IMG/VR virus record: IMGVR_UViG_3300032092_000005
Coordinates: 32,001-96,000 of that record
Length of the DNA stretch: 64,000 nucleotides
Strand: one strand, 5' to 3'
DNA from: a virus
This document shows, piece by piece, positions 3,726 through 13,781 of this stretch. Each line of letters starts with the position of its first letter. Position 1 is the stretch's first letter. Made by a program: the position numbers and the translations under genes. The notes under the pieces are model-generated. The model saw only the letters and a list, made by a program, of their open reading frames with translations. It ran no database searches and was not told the origin of the DNA.

Positions 3726-3800
3726 GGTGATATAGCACAGTGGAAGTGCAACTCCTTCATACGGAGTAGGTCGTTGGTTCGAATCCAACTATCACCACCA
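3726..3800 (+). tRNA. tRNA-Met(CAT), probably elongator
   Basis: GGTGATA/TATCACC acceptor, TT-CAT-AC loop. Confidence 0.9.
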
Positions 3801-3841
3801 TATAAAAACACATTCCTATTTTTAGTGTGTTTCTATATGGT
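3797..3841 (+). ncRNA. CCA-anchored stem element, copy A (minimal)
   Basis: ACCATATAAAAACACATT...AGTGTGTTTCTATATGGT. Confidence 0.55.
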
Positions 3842-4065: not shown

Positions 4066-4141
4066 GGGATCGTGGTGAAATGGTTATCACAGCAGACTTT
4101 TAATCTGCCAGTTTCGGGTTCGAGTCCCGGCGGTCCTACCA
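4066..4141 (+). tRNA. tRNA-Lys(TTT)
   Basis: cloverleaf, CT-TTT-AA loop. Confidence 0.92.
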
Positions 4142-4228
4142 TATAAAAACACATTAAGCACCTCGTACGGTGTTAGGGAAGTTCATGCATGGCGACTCGG
4201 CGCAGGCTATAATGTGTTTCTATATGGT
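4138..4228 (+). ncRNA. CCA-anchored stem element, copy B
   Basis: ACCATATAAAAACACATTA...TAATGTGTTTCTATATGGT enclosing a ~53 nt insert. Confidence 0.6.
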
Positions 4229-4562: not shown

Positions 4563-4654
4563 GGAAGATGATGCAGCGGGGTTGGTCCTGCGACTGGCCT
4601 TGAAAACCAGGTTCTCAGAAATGGGATGGGGTTCGACTCCTCCGTCTTCCGCCA
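4563..4654 (+). tRNA. tRNA-Ser(TGA), 8/4 cloverleaf
   Basis: 8-bp acceptor GGAAGATG/CGTCTTCC, 4-bp T-stem, long V-arm, G73. Confidence 0.85.
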
Positions 4655-4655
4655 G

Positions 4656-4684
4656 TTGACAATGAAGCTTGATTGTGATACAAT
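4656..4684 (+). promoter_or_regulatory. sigma70-type promoter for small-RNA/DUF2828 unit, inside an inverted repeat
   Basis: TTGACA-17-TACAAT; CAATGAAGCT...AGCTTCATTG. Confidence 0.75.
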
Positions 4685-4703
4685 AGCTTCATTGTAGAGT
4701 TTT

Positions 4704-4866
4704 AGGATAGGTACAGCAACCCACTAATACCGAATCGTTTAGTCACTGTGGTAAAAAACTGGAGTACGGAGTCTTGACCGAGTACGTTGAAGGTTTGACA
4801 CTGAAACATACTAAGCAAGGAGAGTTTCGATTTTCTCTCTGTAAACAAAAAGTAGACAACTATCCT
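4704..4866 (+). ncRNA. Y-RNA-like small RNA, copy 1
   Basis: AGGATAG-GTACAGCAA...CTATCCT-GTT terminal stem. Confidence 0.7.
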
Positions 4867-4884
4867 GTTATATTTGAAAGTTTT

Positions 4885-5014
4885 AGGATCGGTACAGCAA
4901 CATTAATCTTTACTAAAAGATGGTTCGAGCTAGTTTAAGGCAATAACACCCTTATTTCTTGAACCCACGTGAGTTTCGAATTCTCACTCGAAAGAAAAAG
5001 TAGAAACCGATCCT
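4885..5014 (+). ncRNA. Y-RNA-like small RNA, copy 2
   Basis: AGGATCGG-TACAGCAA...CCGATCCT-GTT. Confidence 0.7.
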
Positions 5015-5024
5015 GTTGTATTTT

Positions 5025-5146
5025 AGGTTAAGTTCCGCAAAACAAAATATGCAAACATAAACCGAAAGTCTGGTTCGATTCCAGCTAGGGCACGTAGTGT
5101 CTTAGTAGTGTAATGGCAGCACATTGGTACGCAAAAAGTTTAACCT
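5025..5146 (+). ncRNA. YrlA-like RNA with circularly permuted tRNA domain, copy 3
   Basis: AGGTTAAG-TTCCGCAA...TTTAACCT; T-arm, loop-closed acceptor and D-arm in permuted order. Confidence 0.75.
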
Positions 5147-5167
5147 GTTGATTTGAAAGGAAATATT

Positions 5168-6607
5168 ATGTCAACATTTGTAGAAGCCGTAGTAAACCAA
5201 GAAGCCCGTACTGCCAATGGCATGAAGGCACGTAAGTCCACTGCTAATGCGGTTGTAGATTTATTCTACAATGCAGGTGCAAGCCGTGGTAAGAATATTG
5301 TTCCTGCATTCGCAGCAGCATTTGCGCAAGACCGTGATCTAGCATTGCGCGTAGCCGCCTGGTTGCGTGATGTGCGTAGCGGTGCAGGTGAACGTCAATT
5401 GTTCCGTGATATCTTAGGGTATCTGGAAAACAATGATCGTGTAGCAGCAAAGGCACTTGTTGCAAAGGTTCCTGAATTGGGACGTTGGGATGACTTGTTC
5501 ATCTTCAATTCTAAGGAAATGAAGGAAGCAGCATACACATTGCTTGGTGACGCATTGCGTGAAAAGAATGGCCTTGCAGCTAAGTGGACACCTCGTCAAG
5601 GCAAGCTTGCAGCAGAAATTCGTACATTCTTCGGAATGTCGCCAAAGTTCTACCGCAAGTCTCTAGTTGAAATGACTAACGTTGTTGAAACTAACATGTG
5701 TGCAAAGGACTGGGACGGGATTAACTTCTCGCATGTTCCATCTGTAGCAGCATCGCGGTACAAGAAGGCATTCAACCGTAACACTCCAGCTTATGCAGCA
5801 TACGTTGCAGAGTTGATGAAGGATCCAAAAGATCGTACAGTTGAAGTGAAGGTTAATGCTGGTGCAGTGTACCCATATGATGTACTGAAAGGTCGCATCT
5901 CTGGTTATGGTGTGTCGTTTGACAAGACAGAATTGGATCTGATCCAAAAGCAATGGGAAGCACTACCTAACTTTGTTGGGGATGCAAACATTCTGCCTTT
6001 GGTTGACGTTTCTGGTTCTATGACTTGTCCAGCAGGTGGATCAGGCTCAAAGTCTAAGCTGACTTGCCTGGAAGTTGCAGTCTCTCTGGGATTGTATCTT
6101 GCAGACAAGAACAAGGGTAAGTTCAAGGATACGTTCTTGACTTTTTCTAACAAGCCAGAGTTGATGACTTTGAAGGGCAACATCAATGAGAAGATCAGCC
6201 AAATGGTTTCTTCTGATTGGGGAATGACTACTGACTTGAATCGTGCGTTTGACAAAATCCTTAGTGTAGCAATTAAGGGCAATGTGCCAAACAGTGAAAT
6301 GCCAGAAATGTTGCTGATCCTTTCGGACATGCAATTCAATTCTTGTGTTGCACATGACGATTCGGCTATCGAAATGATGGCACGTAAGTACGAAGCAGCA
6401 GGATACGCCTTACCAAAGGTTGTGTTCTGGAACTTGAATGCTGCATACGGCAATGCGCCTGTGAAGTTTGACAAGTCTGGCACTGCATTGGTTTCGGGGT
6501 TCTCTCCAGCCATTGTTAAGCCTCTGCTATCTGGCGACATGGAAGACTTTTCACCAGAGGCTGTGATGTTGAAGACAATCATGGATGACCGTTATACTGT
6601 GATTTAA
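5168..6607 (+). CDS. DUF2828-type Ro60/TROVE-like protein with C-terminal vWA domain
   Basis: RDVRSGAGER, PELGRWDDL, AKWTPR, MIDAS DVSGS, SDMQF, VFWNL, SGFSP motifs; AAAGGA SD. Confidence 0.85.
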   Translation: MSTFVEAVVNQEARTANGMKARKSTANAVVDLFYNAGASRGKNIVPAFAAAFAQDRDLALRVAAWLRDVRSGAGERQLFRDILGYLENNDRVAAKALVAKVPELGRWDDLFIFNSKEMKEAAYTLLGDALREKNGLAAKWTPRQGKLAAEIRTFFGMSPKFYRKSLVEMTNVVETNMCAKDWDGINFSHVPSVAASRYKKAFNRNTPAYAAYVAELMKDPKDRTVEVKVNAGAVYPYDVLKGRISGYGVSFDKTELDLIQKQWEALPNFVGDANILPLVDVSGSMTCPAGGSGSKSKLTCLEVAVSLGLYLADKNKGKFKDTFLTFSNKPELMTLKGNINEKISQMVSSDWGMTTDLNRAFDKILSVAIKGNVPNSEMPEMLLILSDMQFNSCVAHDDSAIEMMARKYEAAGYALPKVVFWNLNAAYGNAPVKFDKSGTALVSGFSPAIVKPLLSGDMEDFSPEAVMLKTIMDDRYTVI

Positions 6608-6687
6608 AAATCTAAGTATAACTCCGAGGATTCGAAAGAGTCCTCATTTTGAAGTGTGCTGATAGTGCATTTCAAAATGAAAAATAA

Positions 6688-6775
6688 GGAAGACTCCCAT
6701 AATGGTATTGGAGCGGCTTGCTAAGCCGTCGGTCGTTAAATCGGCTTCGGGGTTCGAGTCCCCGGTCTTCCGCCA
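6688..6775 (+). tRNA. tRNA-Ser(GCT)
   Basis: TT-GCT-AA loop, long V-arm, G73. Confidence 0.9.
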
Positions 6776-6850
6776 TACACAATGTACGCTATAATGTACA
6801 TTAACAGTGGTTTTTGTTCATAATGGGCGTTTTTATGCCTCTTATGACAG

Positions 6851-6911
6851 TGTTGTATTTTTGCAACAGACACAAAAAAAGTGTTGACAAATCTTCTGAT
6901 CCTGTTATACT
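6851..6911 (+). promoter_or_regulatory. second tRNA operon promoter with TGTTG-N8-CAACA box
   Basis: box 6851-6868; TTGACA 6884; TATACT 6906. Confidence 0.8.
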
Positions 6912-6943
6912 AGATTCTGTTGAGTTGATAGTGATTCAACAAA

Positions 6944-6956
6944 AGTTCTTTAAAAA
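6944..6956 (+). promoter_or_regulatory. boxA-like element
   Basis: AGTTCTTTAAAAA between promoter and tRNA-Glu. Confidence 0.6.
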
Positions 6957-6972
6957 GTTAAGTGTGATTTTT

Positions 6973-7047
6973 GCTCAGTTCGACTATCGGTCAGGTCGCT
7001 AGACTTTCAATCTGGAAAGACGGGTTCGACTCCCGTACTGAGCACCA
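6973..7047 (+). tRNA. tRNA-Glu(TTC)
   Basis: cloverleaf, CT-TTC-AA loop. Confidence 0.9.
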
Positions 7048-7158
7048 TATTAAAGCATATTTCAGGTTGGGCTAGATTCGCGGTTTAGCTATTTGGGTAT
7101 CATGGACTAGGTAATTACTAGCACCGGTACTAAGATACGAAATGTGTTTTAATATGGT
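7044..7158 (+). ncRNA. CCA-anchored stem element, copy C
   Basis: ACCATATTAAAGCATATTTC...GAAATGTGTTTTAATATGGT with multi-hairpin insert. Confidence 0.6.
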
Positions 7159-7163
7159 AGTTT

Positions 7164-7240
7164 GCCCTGGTGACGGAATTGGTATACGTACTGGTCTTAG
7201 AAACCAGGTTTTGCGAGTTCGAGTCTCGCCTAGGGCACCA
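7164..7240 (+). tRNA. tRNA-Leu(TAG), short variable loop
   Basis: CT-TAG-AA loop; V-region only GTTTT. Confidence 0.88.
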
Positions 7241-7252
7241 AAAGTATTTTAT

Positions 7253-7329
7253 GCGTCTGTAATTCAATTGGACAGAAATTCAGTCTTCGAAACTGAAAGT
7301 TGGGAGTTCGAATCTCTCTAGACGCACCA
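7253..7329 (+). tRNA. tRNA-Arg(TCG)
   Basis: CT-TCG-AA loop. Confidence 0.9.
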
Positions 7330-7426
7330 AATTAAAACATACTGCTTGCCTGACTGCAAAAGTCGTGGTAAACTACAAGAGAAAGAGGTTCGAATCCTCG
7401 GGACTGGTAGTGTGTTTTAATTTGGG
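7326..7426 (+). ncRNA. CCA-anchored stem element, copy D (contains a T-arm)
   Basis: ACCAAATTAAAACATACTGC...GTAGTGTGTTTTAATTTGGG; internal GAGG-TTCGAAT-CCTC. Confidence 0.6.
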
Positions 7427-7498
7427 CTGATGGTATAATTGGGAACACAGTGGCCTTGCAAGTCACAGTTGGGGGTTCGATTCCCCCTCGGTCCACCA
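7424..7498 (+). tRNA. tRNA-Ala(TGC)
   Basis: G3:U70, CT-TGC-AA loop. Confidence 0.92.
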
Positions 7499-7500
7499 AA

Positions 7501-7690
7501 TCTCGTTACTACTTTCGTTAAAGTAGCGTTTGATTAGCGATAGAGATCCGGTGGCAGAAAACCGTTAGCGAGGTCAAACTCAGGCTCTGATAGGCAGAAT
7601 CTCAACTGCACACAGACACACAGAATAAATGGAGATGGACAGAGTAACTGCTCAATTAAGGGCTGGCGTAGAACCCAGTAGCTTATCCTA
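7501..7690 (+). ncRNA. unidentified structured RNA
   Basis: several stems and a possible pseudoknot between tRNA-Ala and tRNA-Asp. Confidence 0.45.
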
Positions 7691-7695
7691 TTTAA

Positions 7696-7770
7696 GGCTC
7701 GTTCATATAATGGTCATTATCGCGGATTGTCTATCCGTAGATGGGAGTTCGATTCTCCCACGAGTCGCCA
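7696..7770 (+). tRNA. tRNA-Asp(GTC)
   Basis: TT-GTC-TA loop, G73. Confidence 0.9.
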
Positions 7771-7778
7771 GTTTTAAT

Positions 7779-7852
7779 CCTCCGTTAGCTCAATGGTAGA
7801 GCAATCGGCTGATAACCGATAGACAGAAGTTCAATTCTTCTACAGAGGACCA
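7779..7852 (+). tRNA. tRNA-Ile(GAT)
   Basis: CT-GAT-AA loop. Confidence 0.9.
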
Positions 7853-7863
7853 AAAAGTATTTC

Positions 7864-7947
7864 GGAGTGAATGGAACAATGGTGTTCTAGCCGGCTGTAA
7901 CCCGGTGGCCTTCGGGCAGGTAGGTTCGATCCCTACTCACTCCACCA
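7864..7947 (+). tRNA. tRNA-Tyr(GTA)
   Basis: CT-GTA-AC loop, V-arm. Confidence 0.88.
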
Positions 7948-7953
7948 GATTTT

Positions 7954-8013
7954 AGAATGCGTTCAGCAAAAAAATACATTGAACTTTTAATTCAAACCGT
8001 AAAAAAGCATTCT
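7954..8013 (+). ncRNA. Y-RNA-like small RNA, copy 4 (tRNA-Lys anticodon stem-loop cargo)
   Basis: AGAATGC-GTTCAGCAA...GCATTCT-GTT; internal TTGAA-CTTTTAA-TTCAA. Confidence 0.7.
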
Positions 8014-8038
8014 GTTGTTTACATATATAATACGTTGT

Positions 8039-8114
8039 GTACGTGTGCGCCGAACGGCTAGGTAGCGGATTGCAAATCCGTATAATGCAGGTTCGAATCC
8101 TGTCACGTACTCCA
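8039..8114 (+). tRNA. tRNA-Cys(GCA)
   Basis: TT-GCA-AA loop, U73. Confidence 0.9.
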
Positions 8115-8128
8115 CACAAAAGATTTAT

Positions 8129-8207
8129 TCCGTAGAACCCGAGCATGGTGCATGGGCTTGACTGTTAATCAATGTTTAGCTGGGATCGTTACCCAGATAC
8201 GGAGCCA
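8129..8207 (+). tRNA. tRNA-Asn(GTT), atypical T-loop
   Basis: CT-GTT-AA loop; T-loop ATCGTTA. Confidence 0.78.
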
Positions 8208-8217
8208 AAAGTTATAT

Positions 8218-8293
8218 TGCGGGTAGTGCCCAGTCAACAGTCCAGTCTCATAAGCTCGGATCATCGGAGGTGCGAATCCTTCACCCGCAACCA
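8218..8293 (+). tRNA. tRNA-Met(CAT), initiator-like, atypical
   Basis: TGCGGGT/ACCCGCA-A-CCA acceptor, CT-CAT-AA loop, bulged anticodon stem. Confidence 0.7.
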
Positions 8294-8298
8294 GTTTT

Positions 8299-8353
8299 AG
8301 GATCAGTTCAGCAAACTTAAAAATTTCTCTTGTTCGGAAAAAAAGTTGATCCT
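8299..8353 (+). ncRNA. Y-RNA-like small RNA, copy 5
   Basis: AGGATCAG-TTCAGCAA...TTGATCCT-GTT. Confidence 0.7.
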
Positions 8354-8363
8354 GTTGTTTTTC

Positions 8364-8437
8364 GCCCTATTAGTATAATGGTATTACACCTGTTTTGTAA
8401 TCAGGTTACGGCAGTTCGATTCTGTCATGGGGCACCA
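8364..8437 (+). tRNA. tRNA-Thr(TGT)
   Basis: TT-TGT-AA loop. Confidence 0.9.
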
Positions 8438-8447
8438 AGTCATTTTT

Positions 8448-8521
8448 GCGGGGTTCATTTAATGGTAGGATTTCAGCCTTCCAAGCTGATAGTGCGAGTT
8501 CGATTCTCGCACCCCGCTCCA
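8448..8521 (+). tRNA. tRNA-Gly(TCC)
   Basis: CT-TCC-AA loop, U73. Confidence 0.92.
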
Positions 8522-8528
8522 ATATTTT

Positions 8529-8602
8529 CTCGGTGTGGTGAAATGGTATCACTCTTGGTTTGGGACCAAGGAGCGCAAGTTCGATTCTTGCCACCGAGAC
8601 CA
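8529..8602 (+). tRNA. tRNA-Pro(TGG)
   Basis: TT-TGG-GA loop. Confidence 0.92.
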
Positions 8603-8610
8603 CAAGTTTT

Positions 8611-8670
8611 AGGATAGTTACAGCAAAAAACAAAGCTAACTATTGGTTGTCTAGCGACAAAAGCTATCCT
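8611..8670 (+). ncRNA. Y-RNA-like small RNA, copy 6
   Basis: AGGATAGT-TACAGCAA...GCTATCCT-GTT. Confidence 0.7.
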
Positions 8671-8688
8671 GTTGTTTAATGAGGCTAT

Positions 8689-9234
8689 ATGAAAAAATGT
8701 CCAAAGTGTAATAGTACACATGAAAAAAATGGAAATTTTTGTTCCAGAAAGTGTGGTAATTCTAGGACATGGTCTGAAGAAGATAAGAAAAAAAAATCAG
8801 ATTCTGCTAAAAAATACTACGATGAAAATGTCCACCCAGGATTAGGAAAACCTGGATGGAAACATAGTGATGAACAGAAATTACTCAAAAAGAAATTGTC
8901 TCTTGAAATGTGGGATAAAATTGGTAGAAAATCGTCTGAGCATTATAGACTTGCAAATATTCACACAGTAAACAAATACAGAGCAAGAAGGTATGATGCT
9001 ATAACCGAATCTACAGACTTAAATCTAATTAAAGAGATTTATAAGTACTGTCCTAAAGGTTATGAAGTTGACCATATAATAGCTCTTGCATGTGAAGGCG
9101 AACATCATCAAGATAATTTACAATACCTTCCAGCAATAGAAAATAGAAAGAAAAACAAAACACAAAATTATAACAAGGATCTTGCCGTTCGTTGGCAAGA
9201 TGTATTAAAAATAAGTACAAGGAGTTCACTATGA
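8689..9234 (+). CDS. HNH homing-type endonuclease with N-terminal Zn finger
   Basis: CPKC..FCSRKC; EVDHIIAL..GEH...NLQYL...N..K. Confidence 0.8.
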   Translation: MKKCPKCNSTHEKNGNFCSRKCGNSRTWSEEDKKKKSDSAKKYYDENVHPGLGKPGWKHSDEQKLLKKKLSLEMWDKIGRKSSEHYRLANIHTVNKYRARRYDAITESTDLNLIKEIYKYCPKGYEVDHIIALACEGEHHQDNLQYLPAIENRKKNKTQNYNKDLAVRWQDVLKISTRSSL

Positions 9235-10624: not shown

Positions 10625-10699
10625 GCCTTGGTAGCTTAATGGTAAAGCAGGCGACTCATAATCGCTTGAGTGGGAGTTCAATTCTCTCCCAAGGCACCA
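10625..10699 (+). tRNA. tRNA-Ile2(CAT)
   Basis: GGCGA-CTCATAA-TCGCT anticodon arm as in E. coli ileX. Confidence 0.85.
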
Positions 10700-10717
10700 T
10701 TTAAAAAGGAAAGTAAA

Positions 10718-11188
10718 ATGCGTAAATTAGATTTGAATGAAGTTAGAGAATACATCGAATCGCAGTCACCTGATACAAAAATTTATATCGGATGTGATTC
10801 CGAAAGATTGAATGTTGCGGGACAATGGTACGCAGATTACATTTTAGCAATTGTAGTACACATTAACGGAAGACATGGATGCAAATTGTTTGGAGAAATC
10901 CAACGTGAACGTGACTATGACCAGAAAGTCAGTCGCCCTAGATACAGGCTAATGACAGAAGTTTATAAAATTTCTGAATTGTACCTAAAACTAGCCGATG
11001 TGCTTGAAGGTAGACATGTTGAAGTCCATCTGGACATTAACCCTAATGAAATGCATGGATCATCATGTGTTATCAACGAGGCAATAGGCTATATCAAAGG
11101 AACATGTAATGTAGTTCCTATGGTAAAGCCAAAGGCGTTTGCAGCATCATATGCAGCAGACAGATATAAGAGTTTACACGTAGCTTAA
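10718..11188 (+). CDS. RNase H-like YkuK-family protein
   Basis: IYIGCDS...EVHLDIN...A.YAAD motifs. Confidence 0.75.
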   Translation: MRKLDLNEVREYIESQSPDTKIYIGCDSERLNVAGQWYADYILAIVVHINGRHGCKLFGEIQRERDYDQKVSRPRYRLMTEVYKISELYLKLADVLEGRHVEVHLDINPNEMHGSSCVINEAIGYIKGTCNVVPMVKPKAFAASYAADRYKSLHVA

Positions 11189-12761: not shown

Positions 12762-13781
12762 ATGAGAAAATTAGCTACTATTCGAAAGATTGATGCATTG
12801 AATCCTATTGAGGGTGCTGATGCTATTGAATGCGCAACCGTAGGTGGTTGGAAAGTTGTTGTTAAGAAAGGTGAATACAATGTAGGAGACCGTGTTGTCT
12901 ACTGCGAGATTGACTCATGGATTCCTACTGAGTTAGCACCATTCCTATCAAAGGGAAAAGAACCTCGAGAATTCGAAGGCATCAAAGGTGAACGTCTTCG
13001 TACCATCAAGCTGCGCGGTCAGTTGTCACAAGGTTTGCTGTTGCCGTGGACTGTAGGAGGCGGCGTGCTGGACATGGCGCAGATGTTTGCAGGCGAAGGC
13101 GATGATGTATCGGAACTGCTTGGTATTGTGAAGTGGGAAATGCCCATGAATGCACAACTTGCGGGCATGGCACGTGGTAACTTTCCATCTGCAATTCCTA
13201 AGACTGACCAAGAACGTGCGCAAAATCTTGTTGGAGAAATTCTTGCTGCTGCACAAGCTGGTACTCAATTTGAGATTACCGAAAAGCTTGAAGGCTCTTC
13301 AATGACTTGCTACTTGATTGATGGAGAATTTGGTGTTTGCTCACGTAACCTCGACTTGAAGGAAACTGAAGGCAATGCATTCTGGCAAGTTGCGCGGCGT
13401 GATGACATTGAGGCAAAAATGCGTATCGGCCGAAATTTTGCTATTCAAGGCGAGTTGATTGGTCCTGGCATTCAAGGTAATATCTACAAACTACGTGAAC
13501 CAGAGTTCCGTGTGTTTGATGTATACAATATTCAAGGTGGTTGCTATTTGGATCCAGCTGACCGGCGTGAGTTGATTGAGAGCATGGGACTGAAACATGT
13601 TCCTGTTATGTACGTTGACAAGGATCTTGGTGTTGGCTCTGTAGAAGAAATTCTGCAATGGGCTGAAGGTGCATCAAAGCTGAACGAAAAGCAAGAACGT
13701 GAAGGTATCGTATTTAAGGAAGTGAATGGCGGTATGTCATTCAAGGCTATTTCAAATAAGTATCTGCTAGGAGAAAAGTAA
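12762..13781 (+). CDS. RNA ligase, DRB0094 family
   Basis: N-terminal RKLATIRKI..IEGADAIE OB domain; motif I EKLEGSS; QGELIGPGIQ; EGIVFK; FKAISNKY. Confidence 0.88.
   Translation: MRKLATIRKIDALNPIEGADAIECATVGGWKVVVKKGEYNVGDRVVYCEIDSWIPTELAPFLSKGKEPREFEGIKGERLRTIKLRGQLSQGLLLPWTVGGGVLDMAQMFAGEGDDVSELLGIVKWEMPMNAQLAGMARGNFPSAIPKTDQERAQNLVGEILAAAQAGTQFEITEKLEGSSMTCYLIDGEFGVCSRNLDLKETEGNAFWQVARRDDIEAKMRIGRNFAIQGELIGPGIQGNIYKLREPEFRVFDVYNIQGGCYLDPADRRELIESMGLKHVPVMYVDKDLGVGSVEEILQWAEGASKLNEKQEREGIVFKEVNGGMSFKAISNKYLLGEK

What the first reader, a model, noticed from the sequence alone, without database searches (positions are those of the whole stretch)
7954..8353. Anticodon stem-loop mimics carried as cargo: possible decoys for anticodon nucleases
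Seen: copy 4 carries only TTGAA-CTTTTAA-TTCAA (7979-7995), a perfect 5-bp stem with the same 7-nt loop as tRNA-Lys(UUU) at 4066. Copy 5 carries TTTCT-CTTGTTC-GGAAA (8324-8340), also a 5-bp stem with a 7-nt loop and CU at positions 32-33 (UGU centre, non-canonical 37). Known: PrrC and PARIS AriB cut tRNA-Lys anticodon loops during phage infection. Inference: protein-stabilised ASL decoys could titrate such nucleases.
Basis: partly seen in the sequence, partly recalled or inferred. Interest (0 to 1): 0.78.

Follow-up and report, generated by a model that had tools for sequence, protein, structure and literature searches.

The report
Anticodon-arm RNAs on Ro60-like handle
Inside its tRNA gene cluster, this lake phage encodes small RNAs that carry only a tRNA anticodon hairpin on a conserved "handle" shared with the partner RNAs of a Ro60-like protein; they are probably baits for proteins that recognise that hairpin, possibly the host's tRNA-cutting defence enzymes.

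Summary
Taken alone they are weak: about 0 to -1.2 kcal/mol, no better than shuffled sequence. The support is comparative.

- **Recurrence:** in 80 related viral loci, 81 of 109 distinct short elements carry a 5-bp/7-nt hairpin (14 expected). 53 have CU-NNN-AA loops (0.4 expected).
- **Density:** that is about 100 times the density in the surrounding DNA and similar to real tRNA genes.
- **Structure:** the stems covary. Positions 32, 33, 37 and 38 stay fixed, while the "anticodon" changes about three times faster than unpaired linkers.
- **Sister elements:** RNAs on the same handle carry unmistakable tRNA parts.
- **Protein:** the adjacent DUF2828 protein models as a Ro60 ring.
- **Spread:** the same handle, a stem followed by ACAGCAA, occurs in FelixO1 and in Aeromonas, Synechococcus, Listeria and mycobacterial phages.

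No Rfam family or paper I searched describes it. This scan has already noted the same system on many other genomes.

Anticodon-arm mimicry is well supported. The nuclease-decoy function is plausible: the commonest displayed anticodons are Lys-UUU and Thr-UGU, the prime targets of the PARIS nuclease AriB. It remains untested, and AriB also needs contacts outside the anticodon arm. Copy 5 in this window is a degenerate member (U37, C38).

The parts
7950..8020 (+). Scaffold copy 4, a short Y-like RNA. Closing stem 7953-7960 with 8007-8014 (the outermost pair is U.G). Handle motif UUCAGCAA at 7962-7969. Helper helix 7975-7977 with 7999-8001. It follows directly after tRNA-Tyr.
   Evidence: Covariation of the closing stem and helper helix across 56 relatives.
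7979..7995 (+). Anticodon-arm mimic of copy 4: UUGAA CUUUUAA UUCAA, a Lys-UUU-type loop. It belongs to class K.
   Evidence: Orthologues carry the stems UUAGA/UCUAA and UUUGA/UCAAA (compensatory changes) and the loops CUUUUAA or CUUCUAA.
8295..8360 (+). Scaffold copy 5, a short Y-like RNA. Closing stem 8298-8305 with 8347-8354. Handle motif UUCAGCAA at 8307-8314. It lies directly upstream of tRNA-Thr(UGU).
8324..8340 (+). Anticodon-arm-like hairpin of copy 5: UUUCU CUUGUUC GGAAA. It is a degenerate member with a U.G pair next to the loop, U37 and C38.
   Evidence: Nearest relatives have UUCUA CUUGAAA UGGAA or UUCUA CUUUUAA UGGAA.
8607..8677 (+). Scaffold copy 6. It has the same handle, but its cargo is not an anticodon arm. 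The cargo is a conserved GCUAAC-UUGG-UUGUCUAGCGAC module.
4700..4873 (+). Scaffold copy 1, a large Y-like RNA whose cargo contains a T-arm-like GAGUUUCGAUUUUCUC. It is the first RNA after the promoter at 4656.
4881..5021 (+). Scaffold copy 2, a large Y-like RNA with a T-arm-like GAGUUUCGAAUUCUC.
5021..5153 (+). Scaffold copy 3: a circularly permuted tRNA body (T arm, closed acceptor helix, D arm) on the handle, in the YrlA layout. It lies directly upstream of the protein gene.
   Evidence: Related elements carry whole permuted tRNAs with an intact anticodon arm.
5168..6607 (+). Gene for the DUF2828 + DUF7788 protein (479 aa), predicted to have a Ro60-like fold (helical ring plus vWA/MIDAS domain). 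It is the presumed protein partner of the six RNAs.
   Evidence: Pfam. AlphaFold2 model with pLDDT 93. The top 12 Foldseek PDB matches are all Ro60/Rsr/phage Ro60, E down to 4e-9.

Best explanation
Copies 4 and 5 are two of six small RNAs transcribed with the phage's tRNA genes. All six share a handle: an 8-10 bp closing stem formed by the RNA's two ends, followed on the 5' side by (U/A)CAGCAA, with an A-rich 3' linker. I infer that this handle is the binding site for the Ro60-like DUF2828 protein encoded among them.

The handle holds out a variable cargo. In the large copies the cargo is a tRNA body. In copies 4 and 5 it is only a tRNA anticodon arm: a 5-bp stem and a 7-nt loop with C32, U33 and, in most relatives, A37 and A38.

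I propose that the protein-RNA particle uses this arm as a bait for proteins that read anticodon arms. The most likely targets are host defence nucleases that cut specific tRNAs, such as PARIS AriB-like Toprim enzymes, PrrC or RloC. The bait would titrate them or bind them unproductively while the phage's own tRNAs keep translation going.

Shown here:
- the elements, their covarying stems and the conserved loop geometry;
- the fast-changing central triplet;
- the linkage to the protein gene and the protein's predicted fold.

Inferred: that the RNAs are expressed and processed, that the protein binds the handle, and that any nuclease binds the arm.
For: 1. **Recurrence.** 287 complete scaffold elements were found in 80 related loci, out of 315 matches to the 5' motif on the gene's strand; matches on the opposite strand were few.
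2. **An RNA structure, not a DNA repeat.** The outermost scaffold pair is U.G in 53 of 56 sequences, and 98.7% of cells pair, against 29-44% when the partner is slid. Four scaffold pairs and all five hairpin pairs show changes on both sides.
3. **Anticodon-arm geometry is enriched.** 81 of 109 short elements have it against 14 expected, and 53 have CU-NNN-AA loops against 0.4. Density is 7.1 per kb in short elements, 5.3 in tRNA genes and 0.04-0.08 in the rest of the same loci. Real tRNAs of these phages show the same 32/33/37/38 consensus.
4. **The same handle carries unmistakable tRNA parts.** These include whole permuted tRNAs with an anticodon arm, tRNAs lacking the acceptor stem, and probable D-arm-like UUGG loops.
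5. **The triplet is hypervariable.** Positions 34-36 differ at 11.5% of sites between close orthologues, against 3.7% in unpaired linkers and 1.9% at positions 32/33/37/38 (Fisher p = 0.005 and 0.002).
6. **Displayed anticodons match known nuclease targets.** UUU and UGU each occur in 19 loci, and 39 of 57 arms have U36-A-A-U39. AriB's targets are tRNA-Lys(UUU), Thr(UGU) and Asn(GUU), which share UAAU.
7. **Match to a host-type tRNA.** Some class-K arms (UUUGA CUUUUAA UCAAA) equal E. coli tRNA-Lys at positions 28-42.
8. **Protein fold.** The model is Ro60-like.
9. **Genomic context.** An RNA ligase lies at 12762-13781, and RNA ligases sit near the homologous gene in other phages.
10. **Experimental hint.** Bas63 gp130, a Felixounavirus protein with a Ro60-like fold next to the tRNA genes, counters the Ppl defence system.
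Against: - No experiment links these RNAs to the protein or to any nuclease.
- The hairpins are AU-rich and barely stable at 37 C: 0 to -1.6 kcal/mol. Real anticodon stems in these phages are about 60% GC.
- AriB needs D-loop and other contacts outside the anticodon arm, and restoring the E. coli cleavage-site residues (36-41) into T5 tRNA-Lys did not restore cleavage. A bare arm may therefore bind such an enzyme poorly.
- P2 OLD needs a paired CNG motif in the stem. I did not see one in the Thr-type arms.
- Copy 4 has U40 where AriB's site has C40.
- At least 13 different triplets are displayed, so many cannot match a known nuclease.
- FelixO1's short elements show no canonical anticodon arm.
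- The hypervariability test rests on only 9 differences at 78 sites.
- Metatranscriptome contigs cover the region only patchily and cannot prove expression.
- Copy 5 lacks the purine at position 37.
Confidence: 0.42

Rival explanations
1. Adaptor rather than decoy. As in the Ro60/Y RNA/PNPase machine, the cargo would tether a useful partner to the Ro60-like ring, for tRNA surveillance or repair. The partner could be a tRNA-modifying enzyme, an aminoacyl-tRNA synthetase, an RNA ligase or kinase, or the neighbouring RNase H-like PF04308 protein.
For: - Y RNAs are known tethers, and YrlA is a substrate of tRNA enzymes (PMC4201824).
- A phage Ro60 with its Y-like RNAs forms a complex with host PNPase (PMC12135203).
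- A PF04308 homologue lies within 6 kb of the DUF2828 gene in 44 of 81 loci. It is adjacent to the gene in KVP40 and lies at 10670-11188 in this window.
- RNA ligases recur nearby.
- U36-A37 and A36-A37-A38 loops are, from general knowledge, the features read by the t6A and i6A modification enzymes.
Against: Conserved housekeeping partners would not be expected to drive a threefold excess of change at the anticodon triplet among close relatives. They would also not explain the display of 13 or more different triplets on one scaffold.
Confidence: 0.25
2. The short RNAs are only gates or stabilisers of the Ro60-like protein. Only the handle matters, and the cargo hairpin is a spacer whose shape is a leftover from a tRNA ancestor.
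For: - Cargo differs widely between copies, and copy 6 and many relatives carry no anticodon-like arm.
- The hairpins are thermodynamically weak.
- Copy 5 is degenerate.
Against: - Loop size and positions 32/33/37/38 are conserved while the stems change by compensatory substitutions. That indicates selection on the arm itself.
- The Lys-type arm persists in phages whose protein is only 43-46% identical.
Confidence: 0.15
3. These are not functional RNAs. They would be processing or termination signals of the tRNA operon, or DNA-level inverted repeats that trapped tRNA fragments, and the hairpins in this window would be chance.
For: - From the single sequence the two hairpins are not significant.
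- The elements sit between tRNA genes, where processing signals are expected.
Against: - Strand-specific G.U pairs and extensive covariation.
- About 100-fold enrichment of the loop pattern over flanking DNA.
- Only 2-7 copies per array rather than one per tRNA junction.
- Constant linkage to the DUF2828 gene across distant phage groups.
Confidence: 0.05
4. The arms act on the ribosome. The particle would dock its anticodon arm into an empty A site at the matching codon, for example where a host nuclease has removed that tRNA, to sense or relieve stalling.
For: - From general knowledge, isolated anticodon stem-loops bind the 30S A site in a codon-dependent way.
- The phage also encodes a tmRNA.
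- The triplet varies as if its identity matters.
Against: This is pure inference with no supporting observation. AU-rich unmodified arms would decode poorly.
Confidence: 0.05

Closest known systems
Ro60 (Rsr) with YrlA/YrlB Y RNAs of bacteria and phages (Chen et al. 2014, PMC4201824; Rfam RF02553; Thermus phage phiLo Ro60 with Yrl1/2, PMC12135203)
   Same: - A ring protein with a vWA domain, encoded next to and on the same strand as several small RNAs.
- The ends of each RNA pair into a protein-binding stem, and the distal module varies.
- At least one RNA per genome mimics a tRNA body.
   Different: - The protein is DUF2828/DUF7788 and is not matched by sequence to TROVE; only its fold matches.
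- The handle motif is (U/A)CAGCAA, not GNCGAAN0-1G/CGAA.
- The Rfam YrlA model does not match the elements.
- The RNAs lie inside a tRNA array.
- Some carry nothing but an anticodon arm, a module not described for YrlA.
Deinococcus radiodurans Yrn1 'anticodon arm' (Chen et al. 2014)
   Same: A Y RNA drawn with a 5-bp stem in the position of the anticodon arm.
   Different: - Its loop has 6 nt rather than 7.
- It is part of a larger tRNA-like fold.
- No conserved U33/A37 pattern and no variety of triplets was reported.
Phage tRNA genes as counter-defence to tRNA nucleases (T5 tRNAs against PARIS AriB, PMC12409363; phage tRNA-Thr against P2 OLD, PMC12445682)
   Same: - The same genomic setting: a phage tRNA array.
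- The same anticodons matter: Lys-UUU, Thr-UGU, Asn-GUU.
[quoted passage not shown]
   Different: Those are complete tRNAs that replace cleaved host tRNAs and can decode. The RNAs here have no acceptor end and cannot be charged, so they can only bind.
RNA anti-CRISPRs (phage-encoded solitary repeat units that sequester Cas proteins).
   Same: The logic: a phage RNA copies the part of a host RNA that a defence protein recognises.
   Different: The target system is different, no dedicated protein partner is involved, and the sequences are unrelated.

Membership tests
Ro60 / Y RNA ribonucleoprotein (YrlA type) | Protein with the Ro60 fold: a ring of helical repeats plus a vWA domain with a MIDAS motif | tested here: met
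   AlphaFold2 model with pLDDT 93 and pTM 0.92. The top 12 Foldseek PDB hits are all Ro60, Rsr or phage Ro60, aligned over about 520-570 columns with TM 0.36-0.62 (about 0.5-0.6 for 11 of the 12) and E down to 4e-9. The DVSGSM motif is invariant.
Ro60 / Y RNA ribonucleoprotein (YrlA type) | Protein matches the TROVE domain by sequence | tested here: not met
   Pfam gives only DUF7788 and DUF2828. A profile search of PDB sequences gives Ro60 only at E about 0.1-0.3, over the MIDAS stretch.
Ro60 / Y RNA ribonucleoprotein (YrlA type) | RNAs encoded beside the protein gene on the same strand, with the 5' and 3' ends paired in a stem | tested here: met
   Six copies within 3.5 kb of the gene, all on the + strand. 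The stem covaries.
Ro60 / Y RNA ribonucleoprotein (YrlA type) | Conserved Ro-binding motif GNCGAAN0-1G (CGAA) near the 5' end | tested here: not met
   The invariant motif here is CAGCAA, directly 3' of the stem. The defining motif is taken from PMC4201824 and PMC12135203.
Ro60 / Y RNA ribonucleoprotein (YrlA type) | Match to the Rfam YrlA covariance model | tested here: not met
   Nothing reaches the gathering score. At E up to 1 there is one 25.5-bit match (gathering score 69), and it lies on tRNA genes, not on any scaffold.
Ro60 / Y RNA ribonucleoprotein (YrlA type) | The RNA is physically bound by the protein | not testable with these tools
   This needs immunoprecipitation or a gel-shift assay.
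tRNA anticodon stem-loop (structural mimic) | 5-bp stem closing a 7-nt loop | tested here: met
   Both copies. 81 of 109 relatives have it, and the loop-size profile peaks at 7.
tRNA anticodon stem-loop (structural mimic) | Pyrimidine at 32, U at 33, purine at 37 | tested here: inconclusive
   Copy 4 meets all three (C, U, A). Copy 5 has C32 and U33 but U37. Among 35 distinct arms pre-selected for U33, 27 have C32, 31 have A37 and 30 have A38.
tRNA anticodon stem-loop (structural mimic) | The stem is maintained by compensatory changes in homologues | tested here: met
   All 5 pairs show changes on both sides, with 98.5% of cells paired and 17 distinct stems. One caveat: the aligned set was chosen for having the hairpin.
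tRNA anticodon stem-loop (structural mimic) | Stable on its own | tested here: not met
   Folding energies are 0 to -1.6 kcal/mol at 37 C. It would need protein, magnesium or a low temperature.
Decoy or bait for anticodon nucleases (functional class) | The displayed anticodon corresponds to a tRNA that known defence nucleases cut | tested here: met
   Copy 4 shows UUU and copy 5 shows UGU. UUU and UGU each occur in 19 loci. AriB cuts Lys-UUU, Thr-UGU and Asn-GUU, and P2 OLD cuts Thr-UGU.
Decoy or bait for anticodon nucleases (functional class) | Carries the full recognition determinants of such a nuclease | tested here: inconclusive
   U36-A-A-U39 is present in copy 4 and in 39 of 57 arms. The full AriB site UAAUCA is present only in some relatives, and copy 4 has UAAUUC. 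AriB also reads the D loop, which a bare arm lacks.
Decoy or bait for anticodon nucleases (functional class) | Binds or inhibits the nuclease and protects the phage | not testable with these tools
   This needs biochemistry and phage genetics.

The most novel reading that the evidence does not exclude
The DUF2828 particle is a re-targetable bait system. A fixed protein-binding handle presents a bare anticodon arm, and phages change only the three central letters to neutralise whichever anticodon-specific tRNA nuclease their current hosts deploy. Sister RNAs on the same handle present D-arm, T-arm or whole-tRNA baits. This would be a new, widespread class of RNA-based anti-defence, found from coliphage FelixO1 relatives to cyanophages and Listeria phages.
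Probability: 0.3. Interest if true: 0.9.

Novelty: new variant of a known kind. Interest (0 to 1): 0.8.

Why it matters
tRNA cleavage is emerging as a common bacterial defence, through systems such as PARIS, PrrC, RloC, OLD and some retrons. The known phage answers are spare tRNAs and tRNA repair.

A protein-held RNA that copies only the part of the tRNA the nuclease reads would be a third answer. It would also give a function to a very large uncharacterised protein family: DUF2828 has about 6,000 sequence clusters at 50% identity and homologues in 711 sequenced phages, including FelixO1-like and Listeria phages.

It would extend Ro60/Y RNA biology as well. The cargo module of a Y RNA would then be a swappable tRNA part.

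The prediction can be tested directly in laboratory phage-host pairs that carry the system, such as Aeromonas phage 4_4572 and FelixO1/Bas63.

Tried and rejected
- **Single-sequence folding** of the elements and of the bare hairpins gave no signal above shuffles. The case could not be made from this window alone.
- **Nucleotide search of the phage collection** found only tRNA matches and no close relative.
- **Sequence search of PDB** with the protein alone gave nothing useful.
- **Rfam**, at the gathering score and at E up to 1, has no family for the scaffold.
- **Literature searches** for DUF2828, Y RNA with anticodon stem-loop, anticodon-nuclease decoy, anticodon-arm mimic, and Ro60 with anti-defence found no description of this RNA family. 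The Burroughs and Aravind RNA-repair paper was not held in the library.
- **Metatranscriptome contigs** from four lake runs were laid on 4600-8720. Coverage is patchy, with one 151-nt contig overlapping copy 4 at 7971-8020. Contigs cannot show ends, strand or expression, so I draw no conclusion from them.
- **A strict scaffold scan of KVP40** (5-kb flanks) found no element. This is not evidence of absence.
- **FelixO1** has the handle, but I could not read a canonical anticodon arm in its short elements.
- **Links to the phage's own tRNAs:** I looked for a link between a short element's triplet and its neighbouring tRNA gene. Copy 5 (UGU) does sit before tRNA-Thr(UGU), but the same slot carries UGA in a relative, so I dropped the idea. 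A link to the phage's tRNA gene content was not tested, because these arrays carry nearly every tRNA.
- **Not run:** a covariance model, because the MAFFT-based pair counts were already clear, and a protein-complex prediction, because that tool cannot take RNA.
Full report
**Setting.** The window is part of a 152-kb viral record.
- It carries 25 tRNA genes and a permuted tmRNA.
- In the middle of the tRNA array, at 5168-6607, it encodes a 479-aa protein that Pfam assigns to DUF7788 and DUF2828.
- Six elements on the + strand share the 5' motif TTTTAG-(stem)-(T/A)C(A/C)GCAA. Each has a matching 3' arm followed by CTGTTG.
- Copies 1-3 (4700-5153) lie between a promoter and the protein gene and carry T-arm-like cargo.
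- Copies 4-6 (7950-8020, 8295-8360, 8607-8677) are short and sit between tRNA genes.

**The observation.**
- The sequence at 7979-7995 is TTGAA CTTTTAA TTCAA.
- The first loop equals the anticodon loop of the window's tRNA-Lys(UUU).
- The second loop has C32 and U33 but U37 and C38, and the pair next to its loop is U.G.
- On their own these hairpins are not evidence. Predicted energies are 0 to -1.2 kcal/mol and no better than shuffles. The minimum-energy folds of the whole elements do not include them.

- The protein found 241 related stretches in IMG/VR, and the best 80 loci were fetched.
- These loci hold 315 matches to the 5' motif on the gene's strand and few on the other strand. 287 of them have a matching 3' arm.
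- Of 109 distinct short elements (58-80 nt), 81 contain a hairpin of at least 5 bp with a 7-nt loop. Every other loop size from 3 to 11 nt gives only 4-21 elements.
- Dinucleotide shuffles of the cargo give 14.1 +/- 3.3 such hairpins. 57 elements have YU-NNN-RN loops (1.7 expected) and 53 have CU-NNN-AA loops (0.4 expected).
- In the same loci, the density of CU-NNN-AA hairpins is 7.1 per kb in short elements, 5.3 in annotated tRNA genes and 0.04-0.08 elsewhere.
- The 547 distinct real anticodon arms of these phages show the same consensus at 32, 33, 37 and 38, although their stems are 60% GC.
- 48 of the 63 loci that have any short element have at least one of this type.

**Structure.**
- I aligned 56 elements with MAFFT, without fitting to any structure, and counted pairs for a structure I specified.
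- 98.7% of cells pair, against 79.8% in shuffles and 29-44% when the partner column is slid.
- All five pairs of the hairpin, and four pairs of the closing stem, change on both sides.
- A 2-bp helper helix outside the hairpin switches between A-U (17) and G-C (16).
- The outermost scaffold pair is U.G in 53 of 56 sequences, which only makes sense as RNA on this strand.
- One caveat: the aligned set was chosen for having the hairpin, so the percentage paired is partly built in. The variety of pair types is not.

**Classes.**
- Copy 4 belongs to class K. Its layout is UAC-A-[arm]-ACC-GUA, its stems are UUGAA/UUCAA, UUAGA/UCUAA or UUUGA/UCAAA, and its loop is CUUUUAA (three have CUUCUAA).
- A sister class T has the same layout with UUCAA CUUGUAA UUGAA. 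K and T tend to replace one another in similar positions of the arrays. Together they read CU-UNU-AA.
- A third class, UUUCA CUG-NN-AA UGAAA, shows GUA, GAA, GGA, GUU and GUC on an otherwise constant scaffold.
- Copy 5's nearest relatives are UUCUA CUUGAAA UGGAA and UUCUA CUUUUAA UGGAA, so copy 5 is a degenerate member of a canonical class.
- Across all classes at least 13 triplets are displayed. UGU and UUU each occur in 19 loci.

**The triplet changes fastest.** I compared close orthologues of equal length, using 26 minimum-spanning-tree edges in 13 groups. Positions 34-36 differ at 11.5% of sites. Unpaired linkers differ at 3.7%, the handle at 3.3%, the hairpin stem at 3.9%, and positions 32/33/37/38 at 1.9%. 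Fisher tests give p = 0.002 against all other sites and p = 0.005 against linkers. The sample is small, with 9 differences, but the direction fits selection for change in the triplet.

**Sister cargo confirms the tRNA origin.** Larger elements on the same handle include two types:
- whole tRNAs opened between positions 26 and 27, in the order anticodon arm, variable loop, T arm, closed acceptor helix, D arm;
- tRNAs in which the handle replaces the acceptor stem.

Both types also vary in their triplet between otherwise near-identical copies. A second, more distant set of 80 loci again yields Lys-, Thr- and Tyr-type arms, plus a class of UUGGAAU/AUUGGAA loops that resemble D loops.

**Spread.** tblastn finds DUF2828 homologues in 711 phage records. 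The same stem plus ACAGCAA handle turned up in the following phages:

| Phage | What the locus holds |
|---|---|
| Salmonella phage FelixO1 | The handle, including a YrlA-like element |
| Synechococcus phage BUCT-ZZ01 | A UUUCAA CUUUUAC UUGAAA arm |
| Aeromonas phage 4_4572 | Nine short elements upstream of the gene; one carries UUUGA CUUUUAA UCAAA and another a CUCAUAA loop |
| Listeria phage LMTA-94 | The handle |
| Mycobacteriophage BigCheese | A whole permuted tRNA with a CUGUUAA loop |

The UUUGA...UCAAA arm equals E. coli tRNA-Lys at positions 28-42. I checked my remembered tRNA sequence against 5,426 E. coli genomes.

**The protein.** With an alignment of 70 homologues, the AlphaFold2 model has pLDDT 93. 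Its 12 best PDB matches are all Ro60: Xenopus and human Ro60, Deinococcus Rsr and Thermus phage phiLo Ro60. The matches run over nearly the full length, with E down to 4e-9. By sequence the link is only sub-threshold. Several phage records annotate their homologue as 'Ro-like RNA binding protein'.

**Comparison with what is known.**
- Ro60 binds Y RNAs through a stem formed by the RNA's ends. Bacterial and phage YrlA RNAs add a tRNA-like body (PMC4201824; PMC12135203).
- This system has the same logic but differs in four ways: the protein family, the handle motif (CAGCAA, not CGAA), no match to the Rfam YrlA model, and RNAs that carry only an anticodon arm.
- I found no paper describing it.
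- This scan has noted the same protein-RNA pairing on many other genomes, and other notes on this genome describe the six scaffolds. My numbers were computed independently here.

**Mechanism.** The structural claim is strong. The function is inferred.

For the decoy reading:
[quoted passage not shown] These share U36-A-A-U39, and phage T5 escapes with variant tRNAs. Those are the two dominant displayed anticodons, and 39 of 57 arms have UAAU.
- P2 OLD also targets tRNA-Thr(UGU).
- The fast-changing triplet suits a variable, anticodon-specific opponent better than a housekeeping partner.
- A Felixounavirus protein with a Ro60-like fold, Bas63 gp130, counters the Ppl defence system.
- An RNA ligase lies 4 kb downstream.

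Against it:
- AriB needs the D loop and other distal contacts.
- OLD needs a CNG motif that these stems appear to lack.
- The arms are weak helices.
- Many displayed triplets have no known nuclease.

The main rival is a tether for tRNA-processing or repair proteins. These include the RNase H-like PF04308 protein, found near the gene in 44 of 81 loci. I put the bait-for-defence-nuclease reading at about 0.4 and the tether reading at about 0.25.

**Verdict.** The anticodon-arm reading is strongly supported by homologues, and the decoy function is open. This is a new variant of the Ro60/Y RNA kind, of high interest.

Noticed in passing
window 7498-7690: This ORF-free stretch between tRNA-Ala and tRNA-Asp matches no Rfam family. 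It is covered by metatranscriptome contigs at depths of 1729 (X16) and 6273 (X18), while neighbouring bins are mostly under 100. It may encode an abundant stable RNA of unknown kind.
   Followed up: partly
window 8129-8207 and 8219-8293: Two tRNA-shaped sequences ending in CCA are called neither by ARAGORN nor by Rfam, even at E up to 1. The first has a CUGUUAA (Asn-type) loop and an odd T loop, AUCGUUA. The second has a CUCAUAA (CAU) loop and the T loop GUGCGAA. They could be unusual tRNAs or further mimics.
   Followed up: partly
window 10670-11188; L089 6482-7012: An RNase H-like PF04308 protein lies near the DUF2828 gene in 44 of 81 loci and directly after it in KVP40. It is a candidate functional partner of the Ro60-like protein.
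   Followed up: partly
window 3797-3841, 4138-4228, 7044-7158, 7327-7425: A second repeat family: long AU-rich stems that begin at a tRNA's own ACCA end (ACCATATAAAAACACATT ... AATGTGTTTCTATATGGT) and enclose inserts of variable length.
   Followed up: no
window 8607-8677 and many relatives (for example L005:595, L017:1992): The cargo of copy 6 (GCUAA-CUUUUUGG-UUGUCUAGCGAC) is strongly conserved and is not an anticodon arm. It shares a UUGG motif with a class of 7-nt loops (UUGGAAU, AUUGGAA) that look like tRNA D loops.
   Followed up: partly
L006:3699 against L010:4254; L011:5856 against L012:617: Near-identical large elements differ only or mainly in the anticodon triplet: UCU against UUU, and UAU against UUG.
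   Followed up: partly
window 12762-13781: An RNA ligase (PF09414 with an N-terminal PHA02142 OB fold) lies close to the tRNA/Y-like RNA block. RtcB or Rnl2-type ligases also lie near the DUF2828 gene in the Listeria and Aeromonas phages (L091, L090).
   Followed up: no
window 8689-9234: A 181-aa ORF with no Pfam match sits inside the tRNA array, directly after copy 6. By eye its sequence has zinc-finger-like cysteines and an HNH-like motif, as in the homing endonucleases annotated in FelixO1's tRNA region.
   Followed up: no
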